This document shows, in pieces, positions 1,774 through 24,148 of a stretch of DNA of 45,509 nucleotides. The position numbers and the translations under genes were made by a program. Each line of letters opens with the position of its first letter. Within the stretch, counting starts at the first letter, position 1. This DNA comes from a virus, in IMG/VR virus record IMGVR_UViG_3300045988_016812; one strand, given 5' to 3'. The notes beneath the pieces were generated by a model that was not told where the DNA came from, made no database searches, and was given only the letters and a program-made list of their open reading frames with translations.

Positions 1774-1884
1774 ATGACCAAACTTTTGACTTTGCCTGCT
1801 CCCTTTGCTTTTAATCCGTCCGCGCTGATACCGAGACAGTTAAAACAGGTTAAAGACGGCTCTGACTGTTTTGTCAGCGATTAG
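1774..1884 (+). CDS. Possible 36-aa ORF in the switch region (MTKLLTLPAPFAFNPSALIPRQLKQVKDGSDCFVSD)
   Basis: GGAAGGAG RBS about 9 nt upstream of ATG; no recognisable family. Confidence 0.25.
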   Translation: MTKLLTLPAPFAFNPSALIPRQLKQVKDGSDCFVSD

Positions 1885-2115
1885 GCATGTTGCAGATTCA
1901 AGACTGCGCAAGTGACAAAGTGCTTCAAGAAGCGATCAGTGTCGTTGATTGCGATTTTTTAATCTGCAAAGCATATAGGGTAAACAAACTTGATGAGAAT
2001 CTGGTGGGAACGACACTCCCATCAGATTTTTTCATTTGCGGCAAGCGCTCAAGGCTTTTTGTTTCCTTGTAAGCACATTATAGTCCCTCAGAAAACATTT
2101 GTCAATATGTTTTTG

Positions 2116-21284: not shown

Positions 21285-22460
21285 TTAGCCTCTGGTCTTG
21301 ATCTGCGCGATCGGGATCGCTTTGATCGGGAAATACTTCTTTGTGGAAGTCGAATTATTATTCGCAAGCTCCCAGTTTGTTCCTGTCTCAAGCTGCGTGT
21401 TTGTCGGGGAGATAAAGGACGGCTGTTTGAAGCTGATGCCATACGGAGAGAAAATCTTTCTCTGGCGGGAATATAAGGTGTCCTCGCCGCCGTTGGTCTT
21501 CGCGTCTCTATCCATCTCATACGGGACTTTTACGCCGCAGTTTGTGTACTCGATCGCACCAGCGCCGAGAACGTATGTGGTGTATACAGTTCCAGCCGGA
21601 AGGAGTTTGACATAATCACCTTCGTTCGCGTCCGGAATGTCTGTAGTTACGCTTGCTTTTGCGACCTCACCCGCTCCGGTGCCTGCGGTCGTAACTTTGA
21701 GCGCTCCCGGGTCTGTCTGAGATGCTTTGACGTATTTCGCCTCCGCCTCCGCTGTCGGCATGTTGTCGTCAATGAGGACGGTTCTTCCGTTTAAGGTTGC
21801 GAGGGTAAGGTCTCTCTCGATTCCGTCTCCGTCTGTATACTTCATGTATGCGAGGAGCTTAAGATTCTCGAGATCTGTCGCAATCTTGGAGTGCATGATC
21901 GCAAGGCTGAATTTCGCCTTATTGTCTCCGAGAGCCTTCTGGATGGCGTTGTTAAGGGTGGTCTCCGCGAATCCGCTGTTTGTCGGGTCGAGGGACGCGT
22001 CATAGGTGTGCCCGTTCACGAACTTAAGGTTCTCAGCTCCCGTCATGGAGAAGACGCCTTTCAGCGTTGCAAGAAGCGTTTCCTGATCCACATCATCCCA
22101 ATACTCTGCGACTTCCTGCGCAGCCGGGAGGAAGTCCTCGCCTGTGATGTCTGTAGAGAAGTCTTTCTCTGTCCATCCATGAGCACGGCCAACAACGATT
22201 CTACCGTGTGTGTACGTCTCTCTGGAATCTGCTGTGATGTTGGTTGAGCCGTCATAGTTGTCCGGTGTACCGCCGATTCTCGCCTTGATCGGAACCGTGA
22301 TATAGTTGCCGCCTGTCTGATCCGGCAACATAGCCGCATACTGGGACTTCTCCACAATCGCGCCGGACTTTAACAGTGCATTTCTGTTGAGGTTCGGGAC
22401 GGTGTCCACATATGTGCCAAATACTTCGCCATTAAAATTCTTAAGGTCGAATAATGCCAT
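21285..22460 (-). CDS. Major capsid protein, 391 aa
   Basis: Follows scaffold gene; ATG 22460 (MALFDLKNF...) preceded by AAAGGA; size and position. Confidence 0.8.
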   Translation of the reverse strand: MALFDLKNFNGEVFGTYVDTVPNLNRNALLKSGAIVEKSQYAAMLPDQTGGNYITVPIKARIGGTPDNYDGSTNITADSRETYTHGRIVVGRAHGWTEKDFSTDITGEDFLPAAQEVAEYWDDVDQETLLATLKGVFSMTGAENLKFVNGHTYDASLDPTNSGFAETTLNNAIQKALGDNKAKFSLAIMHSKIATDLENLKLLAYMKYTDGDGIERDLTLATLNGRTVLIDDNMPTAEAEAKYVKASQTDPGALKVTTAGTGAGEVAKASVTTDIPDANEGDYVKLLPAGTVYTTYVLGAGAIEYTNCGVKVPYEMDRDAKTNGGEDTLYSRQRKIFSPYGISFKQPSFISPTNTQLETGTNWELANNNSTSTKKYFPIKAIPIAQIKTRG

Positions 22461-22540
22461 AAAAAAATCCTTTCTACCCATAACTGTTAAAAGGTGTGTG
22501 GGTTAGCGACAGCACTCAGAATGTGCCGCCGGTCGTTCGT
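22461..22540 (-). promoter_or_regulatory. Conserved structured leader, copy 2 (upstream of major capsid gene)
   Basis: Aligns with 17560-17632; hairpins CGGCAC-ATTCTGA-GTGCTG and ACCCA...TGGGT. Confidence 0.5.
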
Positions 22541-23182
22541 TTACATATACTGTTTGATGTCAAGATCCGGATTCTCGTTCTTCATCTTCATCAGCTCGGA
22601 CATCGTGTATTTCGGTGCGTTGTTCGGGTTGCTCACCGGTTTGGTGAAGCGCGCCGCGTTCTGTTTTGCCCGTTCCTGCTGCCTGTCAACGAAAATCCCG
22701 GTCTTCTGGGTTCCGTCCTCTCCGGTGGTCATCGCTTTGAAGATGTCGCCGATAGACTTTCCCCGTGCGGAATCTTTTCCCAGTTCTTCCACGAGAGCGT
22801 TGCGATAATGATCTTCTGTGATGTCGTTCAAAAACTCATACATCTTGTTCCCCTTATCATCCGTGGAAGACAAGAAATCATTCACAGTCTTTTCAACTTC
22901 GATTTTCCGTGCGTCATCCGCACGCGCTTTTTTCTCATCATTAAGCTGAGTGGTGAGAGTGGCAATCTGTATTTTCAGATCATACACGTCAATGTCTTTA
23001 AATCCGTCCAGTTTGCTCTTGACATCATCCAGTGAAGTCTTATACTCATCTCTTTTTGTCACTACTTTGTCGTAATCTGATTTTGTGCGATAATTCTCGT
23101 CCATTTTCTTTTTCAGATCACTTTTTTTGTCTTCCGGAACTTCGATTTCAAGTTCCTGTAAGATCTGTTCATAGTTCTGCAT
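22541..23182 (-). CDS. Scaffold protein (phage GP20-like)
   Basis: Highly charged coiled-coil 213-aa protein immediately upstream of the capsid gene; TAGGAGG RBS. Confidence 0.7.
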   Translation of the reverse strand: MQNYEQILQELEIEVPEDKKSDLKKKMDENYRTKSDYDKVVTKRDEYKTSLDDVKSKLDGFKDIDVYDLKIQIATLTTQLNDEKKARADDARKIEVEKTVNDFLSSTDDKGNKMYEFLNDITEDHYRNALVEELGKDSARGKSIGDIFKAMTTGEDGTQKTGIFVDRQQERAKQNAARFTKPVSNPNNAPKYTMSELMKMKNENPDLDIKQYM

Positions 23183-23262
23183 GTAATTATCCTCCTAAAC
23201 GTCAATTTTAAACCGCACGTCTGCGGTAATGGATTAAGCCGGATGAACCTCCGGCGGGGTAA

Positions 23263-23336
23263 TGGACCATCAGGGATTCGAACCCCGAACCGTCCGGTTA
23301 TGAGCCGGATGCCCTTGCCGATTGGGCGAATGGTCC
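23263..23336 (-). tRNA. tRNA with CAU anticodon (elongator Met or Ile2 type); CCA not encoded
   Basis: GGACCAT-TC-GCCC-AATCGGCAA-GGGC-A-TCCGG-CTCATAA-CCGGA-CGGT-TCGGGG?TTCGAAT-CCCTG-ATGGTCC-A folds as a cloverleaf; G1:C72 and no GGG/CCC anticodon stem, so not initiator-like. Confidence 0.85.
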
Positions 23337-23675
23337 TTGCGTCCCTGCCGAGAAGATGACAGGGATTAATATATTGATAAGAAAAGGAGTCCCCGCCCCG
23401 TTGCTGGGCGGAAGTGGAGAGTGCCGGCAGCGAACCGGCAATATTCTGTGCAACTCTCCGTAACCGGCGATGCCGGTTAGCAAGTAACTTTCTCGTGCTA
23501 TGCTCTGCACTATGCCCCGGGGGGTGGGGCAGTCGCACGCCGGAAATTGCATCCGCTTTTCAACCTCCCCGATCATGCCGGGTTTCTCTTAAGGGCGTGC
23601 GTGCCGTACGAATAAAGGAGGTATGGCAACAAAAAGCATGGTCCCGTATAGGAGTGGGAATCCACAATGTCCCCA
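23337..23675 (-). ncRNA. Candidate structured non-coding leader RNA (~340 nt) ending at the tRNA
   Basis: GC-rich, no RBS-led ORF, dense perfect hairpins (23461-23479, 23415-23459, 23342-23365); lies between a promoter-like motif and the tRNA. Confidence 0.35.
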
Positions 23676-23680
23676 CGCTT

Positions 23681-23722
23681 TCATTTTATCACATCTCAAA
23701 ATTTATTTTACCCCCACATTTT
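23681..23722 (-). promoter_or_regulatory. Promoter-like motif copy A: AAAATGTGGGGG-N19-TGATAAAATGA
   Basis: Shared with 32451-32493; extended -10-like TGATAAAAT; begins right after stop of 23726..24148. Confidence 0.4.
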
Positions 23723-23725
23723 AGG

Positions 23726-24148
23726 CTAATCTCCGAGCTTACGGATATATCTCTGTATCTCCTGCCGCTCATCCGTAAAATCGCTGTCCATGACCATCGA
23801 AGAGAGCATGTCGTACACCTCCACCATCAGCCGCCCAACGCACTCCATGAGCTTGTCGCGGTGTGCCTGATCGCCGTTCTGTTTGTACGCCTGTTTCGCG
23901 GCAATGTAGCGATCATACAGGGAATCGATGTTGTGATCGTATCTCCCATTGGAGTATTTCTTGATCACATCCTCCGCCACGTCAGCAACACGGCTTTCTT
24001 CCCACTCTTTTCCGTCCATCTTTTCCAGATAGCAGATCGCCGCCGTGAGCTTATAGATCACATCCAGCCGCGATGCCGTCAGGTTGTTCACAGCTTCCTT
24101 TGCTTCCAGATTCAGCTGATCTTTAAGCTTATTTATCAGCTCTTTCAT
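23726..24148 (-). CDS. All-alpha hypothetical protein, 140 aa
   Basis: GGGAGGAG RBS; overlaps upstream gene by 20 nt. Confidence 0.55.
   Translation of the reverse strand: MKELINKLKDQLNLEAKEAVNNLTASRLDVIYKLTAAICYLEKMDGKEWEESRVADVAEDVIKKYSNGRYDHNIDSLYDRYIAAKQAYKQNGDQAHRDKLMECVGRLMVEVYDMLSSMVMDSDFTDERQEIQRYIRKLGD

What the first reader, a model, noticed from the sequence alone, without database searches (positions are those of the whole stretch)
23337..23675. About 340-nt hairpin-dense, ORF-less leader with a tRNA-like minihelix immediately upstream of the tRNA: candidate novel structured RNA
Between a promoter-like motif (23681-23722) and the tRNA there is a GC-rich stretch. Its only ORFs are RBS-less Arg/Pro-rich frames. 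On the minus strand it contains several perfect stems.
- TAACCGGC-ATC-GCCGGTTA at 23461-23479.
- A 45-nt element at 23415-23459: GGAGAGT-N13-GCCGG-TTCGCTG-CCGGC-ACTCTCC-A. This is a 7-bp acceptor-like stem stacked on a 5-bp stem with a 7-nt TTCG-type loop, laid out exactly like a tRNA acceptor and T-arm but lacking the D and anticodon arms.
- TCCCTG...CAGGGA at 23342-23365, abutting the tRNA 5' end.

Large phage ncRNAs such as GOLLD and ROOL are known to sit next to tRNA genes in prophages. This region is shorter than I remember those classes being, so it may be something different. Possibilities include a cis-acting antitermination or processing leader, or a CCA-adding or RNase P decoy.
Basis: partly seen in the sequence, partly recalled or inferred. 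Interest (0 to 1): 0.65.

Follow-up and report, generated by a model that had tools for sequence, protein, structure and literature searches.

The report
Phage leader RNA with truncated tRNA
The hairpin-rich stretch is the untranslated leader of a gut phage's head-protein operon, made of a catalogued RNA motif of unknown function (RAGATH-21), an undescribed conserved 3' module, and a tRNA cut down to its acceptor and T arms.

Summary
The described stems are all present at the stated coordinates, and the region is non-coding. It is not one new 340-nt RNA. It is a composite.

- **Known core.** Window 23532-23603(-) is a full-length match to Rfam RAGATH-21 (RF03097, function unknown).
- **Undescribed 3' module.** M1 occurs in 82 of 110 non-redundant RAGATH-21 loci.
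- **tRNA slot.** In all 55 distinct cases, the M1 hairpin is followed 1-2 nt later by an acceptor stem closing on a T arm. Only 28 of these are called as tRNAs. The other 27 have shortened anticodon regions.
- **Minihelix.** The window's 44-nt minihelix (45 nt with its discriminator base) is the extreme of that series. It is an internally deleted tRNA.
- **Constraint.** In the window's clade, 0 of 82 stem positions vary against 9 of 113 unpaired positions.
- **Context.** All 103 testable loci lie upstream of a phage scaffolding gene.

Best reading: a late-operon precursor in which tRNA-type elements act as RNase P and RNase Z cutting sites. These cuts would release a RAGATH-21/M1 RNA of about 217 nt. 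Processing is inferred, not shown.

This is a new variant of a known kind, of moderate interest.

The parts
23683..23721 (-). Probable promoter of the leader: box AAATGTGGGGG (23711-23721) and extended -10 TGTGATAAAAT (23683-23693). The inferred transcription start is near 23676.
   Evidence: The motifs recur right after the stop codon of the upstream ORF in relatives of several IGR classes. The generic sigma-70 scan does not call it. The promoter role is inferred.
23614..23621 (-). CCUCCUUU, an anti-Shine-Dalgarno-like motif 5' of RAGATH-21.
   Evidence: CCTCC lies within 70 nt upstream of RAGATH-21 in 105 of 114 non-redundant loci. It is also present in relatives that lack RAGATH-21. In silico it pairs with the scaffold gene's SD with probability 0.84 in the window, and 0.98-0.99 in L020, L021 and L022, but only 0.09 in L013.
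23532..23603 (-). RAGATH-21 RNA motif (Rfam RF03097): P1 closing a junction with hairpins P2, P3 and P4.
   Evidence: cmscan gives 70.9 bits (gathering score 70.3), model positions 1-76 of 76. Relatives score 72-93.5 bits. A de novo RNAalifold structure recovers P1-P4, with compensatory changes at 11 of 20 pairs.
23514..23530 (-). Variable hairpin GCCCC-ACCCCCC-GGGGC. It takes the place of a longer hairpin plus a second CCUCCUU motif found in most relatives.
   Evidence: The C-tract loop length varies by -1, +3 and +5 nt in the clade. The relatives' version is shown.
23460..23512 (-). Module M1. It comprises hairpin Ha (GUGC-AGAGCAUA-GCAC, 23495-23510), the conserved UUGCUAACC, hairpin Hb (UAACCGGC-AUC-GCCGGUUA, 23461-23479) and a 1-nt spacer C23460.
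   Evidence: M1 is present in 82 of 110 non-redundant RAGATH-21 loci. Hb shows 98.4% of cells paired, with 2 pairs changed on both sides. No position varies in the clade. No Rfam family matches it.
23415..23459 (-). tRNA-derived minihelix: 7-bp acceptor stem, 13-nt linker, 5-bp T stem with loop UUCGCUG, and discriminator base A23415.
   Evidence: The sequence is confirmed. It occupies the slot of tRNA-Tyr in L002 and L009. It is the shortest member of a 44-89 nt series of slot occupants. Its linker resembles the U8-G9-D-stem of real tRNAs that share its acceptor and T arms. Neither ARAGORN nor the Rfam tRNA model calls it. Only two linker positions vary, across IMG/VR and metagenome contigs.
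23379..23413 (-). Trailer hairpin CCGCCC-AGCAACG-GGGCGG followed by CUCCUUUUCUU. It resembles an intrinsic terminator.
   Evidence: The terminator scan calls it. A homologous UUCCGCC...GGCGG hairpin follows the slot-1 tRNA in L002, L009 and L012. The stem is invariant in the clade.
23342..23365 (-). Hairpin UCCCUG-N12-CAGGGA, 5 nt upstream of tRNA-Met.
   Evidence: The sequence is confirmed. Only loop positions vary (23354; one more in L231). The hairpin is clade-specific; other clades carry different hairpins in front of their tRNA-Met.
23263..23336 (-). tRNA-Met(CAT), with no encoded CCA.
   Evidence: ARAGORN calls it. The Rfam tRNA model gives 65 bits.
23183..23262 (-). Conserved 5' UTR of the scaffolding gene. 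It starts right after the tRNA discriminator and holds two hairpins (23238-23255, 23212-23227) and the SD (23190-23197).
   Evidence: RNAalifold on 7 relatives finds compensatory changes at 5 of 18 pairs and predicts a helix that covers the SD. The scaffold gene (22541-23182) matches PF06810 and phrog_194.

Best explanation
**What it is.** Window 23337-23675(-) is the promoter-proximal, untranslated leader of the late scaffold/capsid operon of a Lachnospiraceae gut phage. It is a string of separate RNA elements, not one RNA. In order:
1. An anti-SD-like CCUCCUUU.
2. The Rfam motif RAGATH-21.
3. A variable hairpin.
4. An undescribed conserved module, M1, whose last hairpin ends 1 nt before a tRNA slot.
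5. In that slot, an internally deleted tRNA that keeps only the acceptor stem and T arm.
6. A trailer hairpin.
7. A spacer hairpin.
8. tRNA-Met.

**How it most likely works (inferred).** The whole leader is transcribed together with the mRNA.
- Host RNase P cuts at the 5' side of the minihelix (between C23460 and G23459) and at the 5' side of tRNA-Met.
- RNase Z cuts after their discriminator bases.
- This releases a RAGATH-21/M1 RNA of about 217 nt whose 3' end is the M1 hairpin.
- It also separates the 5' anti-SD from the scaffold mRNA.

The tRNA-type element in slot 1 is kept as a processing handle, not as a decoder. This would explain why its anticodon arm is repeatedly lost in relatives while its acceptor and T arms stay intact.

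**Shown versus inferred.**
- Shown: the composition, the conservation and the positional rules.
- Inferred: the cleavages and their consequences.
- Unknown: the biochemical role of RAGATH-21/M1 itself.
For: **RAGATH-21.**
- The match is above the gathering score and full length.
- P1 and P2 covary.

**Same-strand tRNAs.**
- 76 of 105 non-redundant RAGATH-21 loci have at least one same-strand tRNA downstream. None has one within 300 nt upstream or on the other strand.
- Counting M1-linked tRNA-likes, 99 of 110 loci carry a tRNA or tRNA-like element. The remaining 11 form a single clade that carries GP20-b instead.

**The slot after M1.**
- In 55 of 55 distinct sequences, an acceptor stem with at least 6 of 7 pairs starts 1-2 nt after the hairpin. 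It closes on a T arm with at least 4 of 5 pairs.
- Only 28 of these are called as tRNAs. The rest are 44-89 nt.
- One tRNA body (identical acceptor, D and T arms) carries anticodon regions of 17 to 22 nt in different phages.
- The window's element sits exactly where L002 and L009 have tRNA-Tyr.

**Constraint.**
- Stems are invariant while loops and linkers vary: 0 of 82 against 9 of 113 positions, p = 0.011.
- The minihelix stems, T loop and discriminator are identical in all further human-gut contigs found.

**Context.** All 103 testable loci have a same-strand scaffolding gene 111-1262 nt downstream.

**Established knowledge.** RNase P measures the stack of the T stem-loop on the acceptor stem. 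The D loop is dispensable. Any RNA presenting that stack is cleaved, MALAT1 and MEN-beta being examples (PMC4919913, section 4.3).
Against: - No transcript or cleavage data exist for this element.
- The minihelix T loop is UUCGCUG, with C where the conserved A58 should be, so the loop may not form a canonical T-loop.
- The hairpin only 1 nt upstream could hinder binding of the RNase P leader rather than help it.
- The minihelix is restricted to one shallow clade with no compensatory changes. Its conservation could simply reflect youth.
- One RAGATH-21 clade (11 of 110 loci) has no tRNA at all, so a tRNA is not required for RAGATH-21 function.
- A terminator-like hairpin lies between the minihelix and tRNA-Met. 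This could mean two transcription units rather than one precursor.
Confidence: 0.5

Rival explanations
1. **Cis-acting regulatory leader.** RAGATH-21, with the 5' CCUCCUUU, acts only in cis on the scaffold/capsid operon. It could work by processive antitermination through the leader's terminator-like hairpins, or by hiding and exposing the scaffold SD. On this view the tRNAs and tRNA remnants are cargo inserted into a highly transcribed leader. This partly overlaps with the best explanation.
For: - RAGATH-21 lies in the 5' leader of a scaffolding gene in 103 of 103 loci.
- It occurs without any tRNA in the L017 clade.
- The same IGR in relatives holds the cis-regulatory candidate GP20-b.
- CCUCC is conserved even in leaders without RAGATH-21. 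It is predicted to pair with the SD in four of the five leaders tested that carry a GGAGG SD.
- A terminator-like hairpin lies downstream.
Against: - It does not explain why M1 always ends 1-2 nt before a tRNA-type acceptor stem.
- It does not explain why acceptor and T arms survive when anticodon arms are lost.
- Any CCUCC will pair with GGAGG in silico. The scaffold leader also has its own local SD-covering helix.
- The pairing probability is only 0.09 in L013.
Confidence: 0.3
2. **Neutral decay.** The minihelix is a dying tRNA pseudogene and the other hairpins are incidental spacers or terminators. Nothing between RAGATH-21 and tRNA-Met has a function.
For: - The minihelix is confined to one shallow clade, with no covariation.
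- Its T loop departs from the consensus.
- Neighbouring tRNAs in relatives also look degenerate, for example a mutated T loop in L002 tRNA-Tyr and odd anticodons.
- The tRNA content of this IGR turns over quickly.
Against: - All 12 stem pairs are perfect, while both substitutions fall in the 13-nt linker.
- Stems across the region are significantly less variable than unpaired positions.
- Loss of the anticodon arm with intact acceptor and T arms recurs in several different tRNA bodies.
- M1 itself is conserved across divergent phages and covaries.
Confidence: 0.25
3. **First reader's version.** A single new large structured ncRNA of about 340 nt, in the manner of GOLLD or ROOL, sitting next to a tRNA.
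For: - The region folds better than shuffles (z = -2.87).
- It is ORF-less.
- RAGATH-21 plus M1 does behave as one conserved unit in 82 of 110 loci.
Against: - No GOLLD, ROOL or other large-RNA hit, even at E <= 10.
- The segments have different phylogenetic spreads: RAGATH-21 is wide, M1 narrower, and the minihelix and pre-tRNA hairpin are clade-only.
- The segments are exchanged as modules between relatives.
Confidence: 0.04
4. **Integration-site remnant.** The partial tRNA is an attP core or integration scar that copies the 3' end of a host tRNA.
For: Temperate phages often carry the 3' part of a host tRNA (T arm plus 3' acceptor strand) at attP (own knowledge). The element does retain that part.
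Against: - The 5' acceptor strand is also present and perfectly complementary, which attP does not need.
- The element lies in the head-gene leader, in a slot held by whole tRNAs in relatives.
- Its T loop is not that of a functional tRNA.
Confidence: 0.02

Closest known systems
RAGATH-21 RNA motif (Rfam RF03097; from the 224-motif survey, PMC5737381)
   Same: Window 23532-23603 matches the whole model above the gathering score. It has the conserved junction and P3/P4 sequences and a phage context.
   Different: - The Rfam model covers only 76 positions.
- In this phage group the conserved unit also includes an upstream CCUCCUU, a downstream hairpin and the M1 module abutting a tRNA-type element.
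- I could not check whether the original supplement mentions this. The main text does not name RAGATH, no supplement is held, and no paper in the library contains 'RAGATH-21'.
MALAT1-mascRNA and MEN-beta: 3'-end formation of a long RNA by RNase P cleavage at a downstream tRNA-like structure
   Same: A structured RNA whose last helix abuts a tRNA-like element that has no decoding role. RNase P recognises the acceptor/T stack (PMC4919913, section 4.3).
   Different: - Those RNAs are eukaryotic nuclear lncRNAs.
- Sequence membership fails: the mascRNA-menRNA model hits only the real tRNA-Met, at 22.7 bits against a gathering score of 42.5, and not the minihelix.
- Cleavage here is not demonstrated.
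Phage T4 tRNA cluster with co-transcribed small stable RNAs (species 1 and 2) released by tRNA-processing enzymes (own knowledge, not checked in the library)
   Same: A phage transcript that mixes tRNAs with non-tRNA stable RNAs of unknown function, matured by host tRNA-processing nucleases.
   Different: - No sequence or structure relation was tested.
- The T4 cluster is not in a structural-gene leader.
- The T4 tRNAs are functional decoders.
Theta (HDV-like) ribozymes next to tRNAs in gut Caudoviricetes (PMC10879173)
   Same: A structured RNA physically coupled to phage tRNAs in gut phages, proposed to define tRNA ends.
   Different: - Theta ribozymes are associated with tRNA 3'-trailer processing and self-cleave.
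- RAGATH-21/M1 sits 5' of the tRNA-type element.
- No ribozyme family matches here.
GP20-b and skipping-rope motifs (RF03003, RF02924)
   Same: They occupy the same intergenic region in front of the GP20/PF06810 scaffolding gene in relatives.
   Different: They are absent from the window and have different structures.

Membership tests
RAGATH-21 (RF03097) | Covariance-model score at or above the curated gathering score, with a full-length match | tested here: met
   70.9 bits against 70.3, model positions 1-76 of 76, E = 8.9e-12. The margin is narrow because P2 is short. Relatives reach 93.5 bits.
RAGATH-21 (RF03097) | P1 closing a multiloop with P2, P3 and P4, and conserved CCUUAAnAGAAA and GAGGUUGAAAAGCGGAUGCAAUUUCCG | tested here: met
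   An independent RNAalifold structure on 13 diverse copies, including the window's, recovers all four helices. Compensatory changes occur at 11 of 20 pairs. P3 and P4 are invariant.
RAGATH-21 (RF03097) | Phage context near the gene classes that accompany twister and hammerhead ribozymes (the meaning of the name; own knowledge) | tested here: inconclusive
   The element is always in the leader of a phage scaffolding gene (103 of 103). The link to ribozyme-associated genes itself was not tested, and the original supplement is not available.
tRNA (RF00005), applied to the minihelix at 23415-23459 | Cloverleaf with a D arm and an anticodon arm, detectable by tRNA models | tested here: not met
   ARAGORN finds only tRNA-Met in the window. 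The Rfam tRNA model has no hit on the minihelix at E <= 10. Only 13 nt lie between the acceptor and T stems.
tRNA (RF00005), applied to the minihelix at 23415-23459 | 7-bp acceptor stem stacked on a 5-bp T stem with a 7-nt loop, plus a discriminator base | tested here: met
   12 of 12 Watson-Crick pairs and discriminator A. The loop UUCGCUG keeps U54-U55-C56-G57 but has C at position 58.
RNase P/Z-processed tRNA-like 3'-end handle (mascRNA type) | A tRNA-like element without a decoding role directly 3' of a structured RNA | tested here: met
   The M1 hairpin ends 1-2 nt before the acceptor stem in 55 of 55 distinct sequences. 27 of these are not callable as tRNAs. Shortened anticodon regions occur on an otherwise identical body.
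RNase P/Z-processed tRNA-like 3'-end handle (mascRNA type) | Actual cleavage by RNase P at the 5' end and by RNase Z at the 3' end | not testable with these tools
   This needs RNA-end mapping or in vitro cleavage.
RNase P/Z-processed tRNA-like 3'-end handle (mascRNA type) | Match to the Rfam mascRNA-menRNA model (RF01684) | tested here: not met
   The only hit is a sub-threshold one on the genuine tRNA-Met (22.7 bits against 42.5).
GOLLD / ROOL large phage ncRNAs | Match to the Rfam models, with a size of about 600-800 nt | tested here: not met
   No hit at gathering thresholds in the whole window or at E <= 10 in 23100-23900.
Intrinsic terminator, applied to 23391-23413 plus the U tract | G+C-rich hairpin followed by a U-rich tract | tested here: inconclusive
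   The consensus scan calls it: 8 pairs, 6 of them G-C, tail ACTCCTTTTC. The scan found 2 sites in the region against 0.7 expected. The U run is interrupted and starts 5 nt after the stem.

The most novel reading that the evidence does not exclude
RAGATH-21 may be only the 5' domain of a larger phage RNA (about 200-330 nt), made of anti-SD-like CCUCCUU motifs, RAGATH-21, a hairpin and M1. Its 3' end would be made by RNase P at an abutting tRNA-derived handle. That handle has repeatedly lost its anticodon arm and is reduced in this window to a bare acceptor/T-arm minihelix. This would be a bacterial-virus counterpart of MALAT1-mascRNA maturation. The same cuts would detach a 5' anti-SD from the scaffold/capsid mRNA, coupling tRNA processing to late-gene translation.
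Probability: 0.3. Interest if true: 0.7.

Novelty: new variant of a known kind. Interest (0 to 1): 0.45.

Why it matters
RAGATH-21 has been an orphan motif since 2017. No paper in the searchable library even mentions it. This locus and about 110 relatives supply three concrete positional rules:
- RAGATH-21 is always in the leader of the scaffolding gene.
- It is usually followed by the M1 module.
- M1 always ends at a tRNA-type acceptor stem, whatever has happened to the anticodon arm.

These rules turn "function unknown" into testable predictions about defined RNase P and RNase Z sites, a processed RNA of about 217 nt, and an anti-SD/SD link.

If the processing-handle idea holds, phages would be keeping tRNA shells for RNA maturation rather than decoding. 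That would change how "degenerate" phage tRNAs are read in annotation. If it fails, the region is still a tidy example of modular ncRNA and tRNA turnover in a late-operon leader.

Tried and rejected
1. **blastn against 50,697 phage records.** Only tRNA-level matches were found. Relatives had to be fetched from IMG/VR through the upstream ORF.
2. **Literature on RAGATH-21.** No paper mentions it. The 2017 paper's main text does not name RAGATH and its supplement is not held.
3. **Full-length ancestor of the minihelix.** None occurs among relatives. A pattern scan found real tRNAs (Lys-CTT, Ser-GCT) in unrelated phage contigs with the same acceptor and T-stem sequences. One has a D-arm start like the minihelix linker. 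This supports a tRNA origin but does not identify the parent.
4. **Covariation in the minihelix.** This is impossible to test. All IMG/VR and metagenome copies have identical stems.
5. **Opposite-strand small ORF using the CCTCC as its SD** (window 23623-23724(+), 33 aa). Rejected. The start codon is lost in L001, 19 of 84 loci have no start, and similar DNA is read in different frames.
6. **A trans target for the pyrimidine-rich 5' tail.** No second complementary site exists in the window with up to 3 mismatches.
7. **Roseburia phage Jekyll**, the closest isolate (capsid 60% identical). It has neither RAGATH-21 nor a tRNA in the equivalent gap.
8. **Protein coding of the leader.** Rejected because of frame-breaking indels and overlap with the tRNA.

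Full report
**Observation.**
- All genes around the finding are on the minus strand. In order: an ORF of unknown function (23726-24148), a 543-nt gap, a scaffolding gene (22541-23182; PF06810, phrog_194) and the major capsid gene (21285-22481).
- ARAGORN finds one tRNA in the window, tRNA-Met(CAT) at 23263-23336.
- The 389-nt gap upstream of the tRNA folds better than shuffles (z = -2.87).
- The only ORFs in the leader run into the tRNA gene. They are broken by -1 and +5 nt changes in a C-tract in close relatives. The region is non-coding.

**A known family inside the region.**
- cmscan against Rfam 15 places a full-length RAGATH-21 motif (RF03097) at 23532-23603(-), just above its gathering score (70.9 against 70.3 bits).
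- No GOLLD, ROOL, tmRNA or other family matches the leader even at E <= 10.
- Thirteen diverse copies from related phages give the same four-helix structure by RNAalifold without using the Rfam model. Compensatory changes occur at 11 of 20 pairs, and the window's copy fits.
- RAGATH-21 has no published function. No paper in the library mentions it, and the discovery paper's supplement is not available.

**Relatives.**
- INPHARED has no close relative.
- IMG/VR gave 80 loci through the upstream ORF and a further set through the invariant RAGATH-21 core.
- One genome scan placed the core in Lachnospiraceae isolates and MAGs such as Enterocloster, Dorea, Faecalimonas and Mediterraneibacter.
- The capsid is 60% identical to that of Roseburia phage Jekyll, which lacks the element.
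- The gap between the upstream ORF and the scaffolding gene is a hot spot. It is 250 nt in most relatives, with neither RAGATH-21 nor a tRNA.
- In others it is 357-1620 nt, with various mixes of RAGATH-21, one to three tRNAs, skipping-rope and GP20-b.

**Positional rules across non-redundant RAGATH-21 loci.**
- 103 of 103 loci have a same-strand scaffolding gene 111-1262 nt downstream.
- 76 of 105 have at least one same-strand tRNA within about 400 nt downstream. None has one within 300 nt upstream or on the other strand.
- 105 of 114 have CCTCC within 70 nt upstream.
- 82 of 110 carry a further conserved module that I call M1 (window 23460-23512). Its consensus is ..GUGGCAGGCAUAACACGAUAAAYACCUUGCUAACCCGGGAAUCCGGGUUA.
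It shows two pairs changed on both sides (CCGGC/GCCGG against CCCGG/CCGGG) and 98.4% of cells paired, far above slid controls.
- M1 has no Rfam match.

**The tRNA slot.**
- In all 55 distinct sequences that follow M1, a 7-nt strand starting 1-2 nt after the hairpin pairs (at least 6 of 7) with a strand lying directly 3' of a T arm. The T stem has at least 4 of 5 pairs, and the loop is nearly always UUCRAnn.
- Total lengths run from 44 to 89 nt.
- ARAGORN of them (Tyr, Met, Ile, Asn, Leu).
- The Rfam tRNA model rescues two of the five uncalled ones checked (L084, L101) but not L082, L089, L108 or the window's.
- One tRNA body, with identical acceptor, D and T arms, carries anticodon regions of 22 nt (a normal tRNA-Ile UAU) down to 17-20 nt that cannot form a standard arm.
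- The window's 44-nt element (45 nt with its discriminator base) lies exactly where L002 and L009 have tRNA-Tyr. Both are preceded by the same M1 hairpin and followed by a homologous UUCCGCC...GGCGG hairpin.
- In the other clade members, the 13-nt linker (UGCGCAG...) resembles the U8-G9-D-stem start of genuine phage tRNAs with the same acceptor and T-stem sequences found in unrelated contigs.
- The minihelix is therefore an internally deleted tRNA. It is the shortest member of a series in which the anticodon arm is repeatedly lost while the acceptor and T arms stay intact.

**Constraint in the window's clade.**
- The clade has six distinct IMG/VR sequences. Ten more contigs from independent human-gut assemblies carry the minihelix element.
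- Between RAGATH-21 and tRNA-Met, 9 positions vary and all are unpaired (0 of 82 stem against 9 of 113 non-stem, Fisher p = 0.011).
- The minihelix differs only at two linker positions, both unique to the window.
- There are no compensatory changes. This shows constraint or youth, not covariation.

**Mechanism.**
- RNase P recognises the stack of the T stem-loop on the acceptor stem. The D loop is dispensable, and RNAs presenting that stack, such as MALAT1 and MEN-beta, are cleaved (PMC4919913, section 4.3).
- None of the slot-1 elements encodes CCA, and the discriminator base is nearly always followed by U. From my own knowledge, this fits RNase Z-type 3' processing in Firmicutes.
- I therefore infer that the leader is a precursor. 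RNase P would cut between 23460 and 23459 and at 23337/23336. RNase Z would cut after 23415 and 23263.
- The products would be a RAGATH-21/M1 RNA of about 217 nt ending in the M1 hairpin, the minihelix, tRNA-Met, and a scaffold mRNA whose conserved 5' UTR starts right after the tRNA.
- The 5' CCUCCUUU is predicted to pair with the scaffold SD: probability 0.84 in the window and 0.98-0.99 in three relatives, but 0.09 in L013. Cutting would then also free the SD. This last step is the weakest. Any CCUCC pairs with GGAGG in silico, and the scaffold UTR has its own SD-covering helix.

**Rivals.**
- A purely cis-regulatory role for RAGATH-21 is supported by the invariable leader position and by a clade of 11 loci with no tRNA. 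It does not explain the M1-to-acceptor-stem rule.
- Neutral decay of a tRNA fits the shallow distribution and the off-consensus T loop (C at position 58). It fits poorly with perfect stems and with the recurrent pattern in other tRNA bodies.
- A single large new RNA, an attP remnant and protein coding are all unlikely.

**Verdict.**
- Its core is a catalogued motif, and the tRNA-like minihelix is a truncated tRNA in a tRNA slot.
- As far as I could check, the new points are the M1 extension, the strict abutment to tRNA-type elements whose decoding parts are dispensable, and the scaffold-leader context.
- I rate it a new variant of a known kind, interest 0.45.

Noticed in passing
window 1870-2031 (+): Full-length FuFi-1 RNA (RF02986), 121.9 bits against a gathering score of 59.6. 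This is another orphan structured RNA from the same 2017 survey, in the same phage.
   Followed up: no
window 23183-23262 (-): Conserved 5' UTR of the scaffolding gene, starting right after the tRNA discriminator. It has two hairpins with compensatory changes (5 of 18 pairs) and a predicted helix (AAUCC with GGAU) covering the SD. It matches neither GP20-b nor any other Rfam family.
   Followed up: partly
L013 3689-3758, L014 3683-3755, L016 3686-3758 (slot between RAGATH-21 and tRNA-Met): A near-identical tRNA body carries different anticodons, all with A34: AGT, ATC and AGC. Likewise L009 'Ser-ACT' and L011 Lys-TTT share one slot. Several slot-1 tRNA-Met genes have the odd anticodon loop CGCAUAG, with G at position 33. 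The anticodon loops look hypervariable on conserved bodies.
   Followed up: partly
Relatives, e.g. L091, L098, L110; absent from the window: Most RAGATH-21 loci have a second CCUCCUU motif just after the hairpin that follows RAGATH-21 (hairpin, a few nt, then CACCUCCUUG/A). This resembles helix 45 plus the anti-SD tail of the 16S rRNA 3' end. The window's clade has only a C-rich hairpin loop there.
   Followed up: no
window 23683-23721 (-) and the same position in L001, L009, L013, L017, L020, L021, L029: A conserved box AAAATGTGG(G/T)G sits directly after the stop codon of the upstream ORF. About 20-25 nt later comes a TGnTAAAAT-type extended -10. This may be a phage-specific late promoter. 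The generic sigma-70 scan misses it.
   Followed up: partly
window 23623-23724 (+): A 33-aa opposite-strand ORF preceded by AAAGGAGG (the complement of the CCUCCUUU motif). Similar 30-36-aa ORFs occur in many relatives, but in different frames, and the start is missing in others. It is probably not a gene.
   Followed up: yes
L021 3763-3846, L028 3772-3855, L056 3763-3846; L017 4947-5011, L029 2988-3051, L032 3739-3801: In relatives, skipping-rope RNA sits between two tRNAs, and GP20-b RNA sits directly before the scaffolding gene, in the same intergenic hot spot.
   Followed up: no
window 23519-23522 (-): The homopolymeric C-tract in the loop of the hairpin after RAGATH-21 changes length among near-identical phages (-1, +3, +5 nt). 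This could be slippage or assembly noise.
   Followed up: no
L088 and L105: tRNA-Val(TAC) begins 1 nt after the 3' strand of RAGATH-21 P1, with no M1 module in between. Here RAGATH-21 itself directly abuts a tRNA.
   Followed up: no
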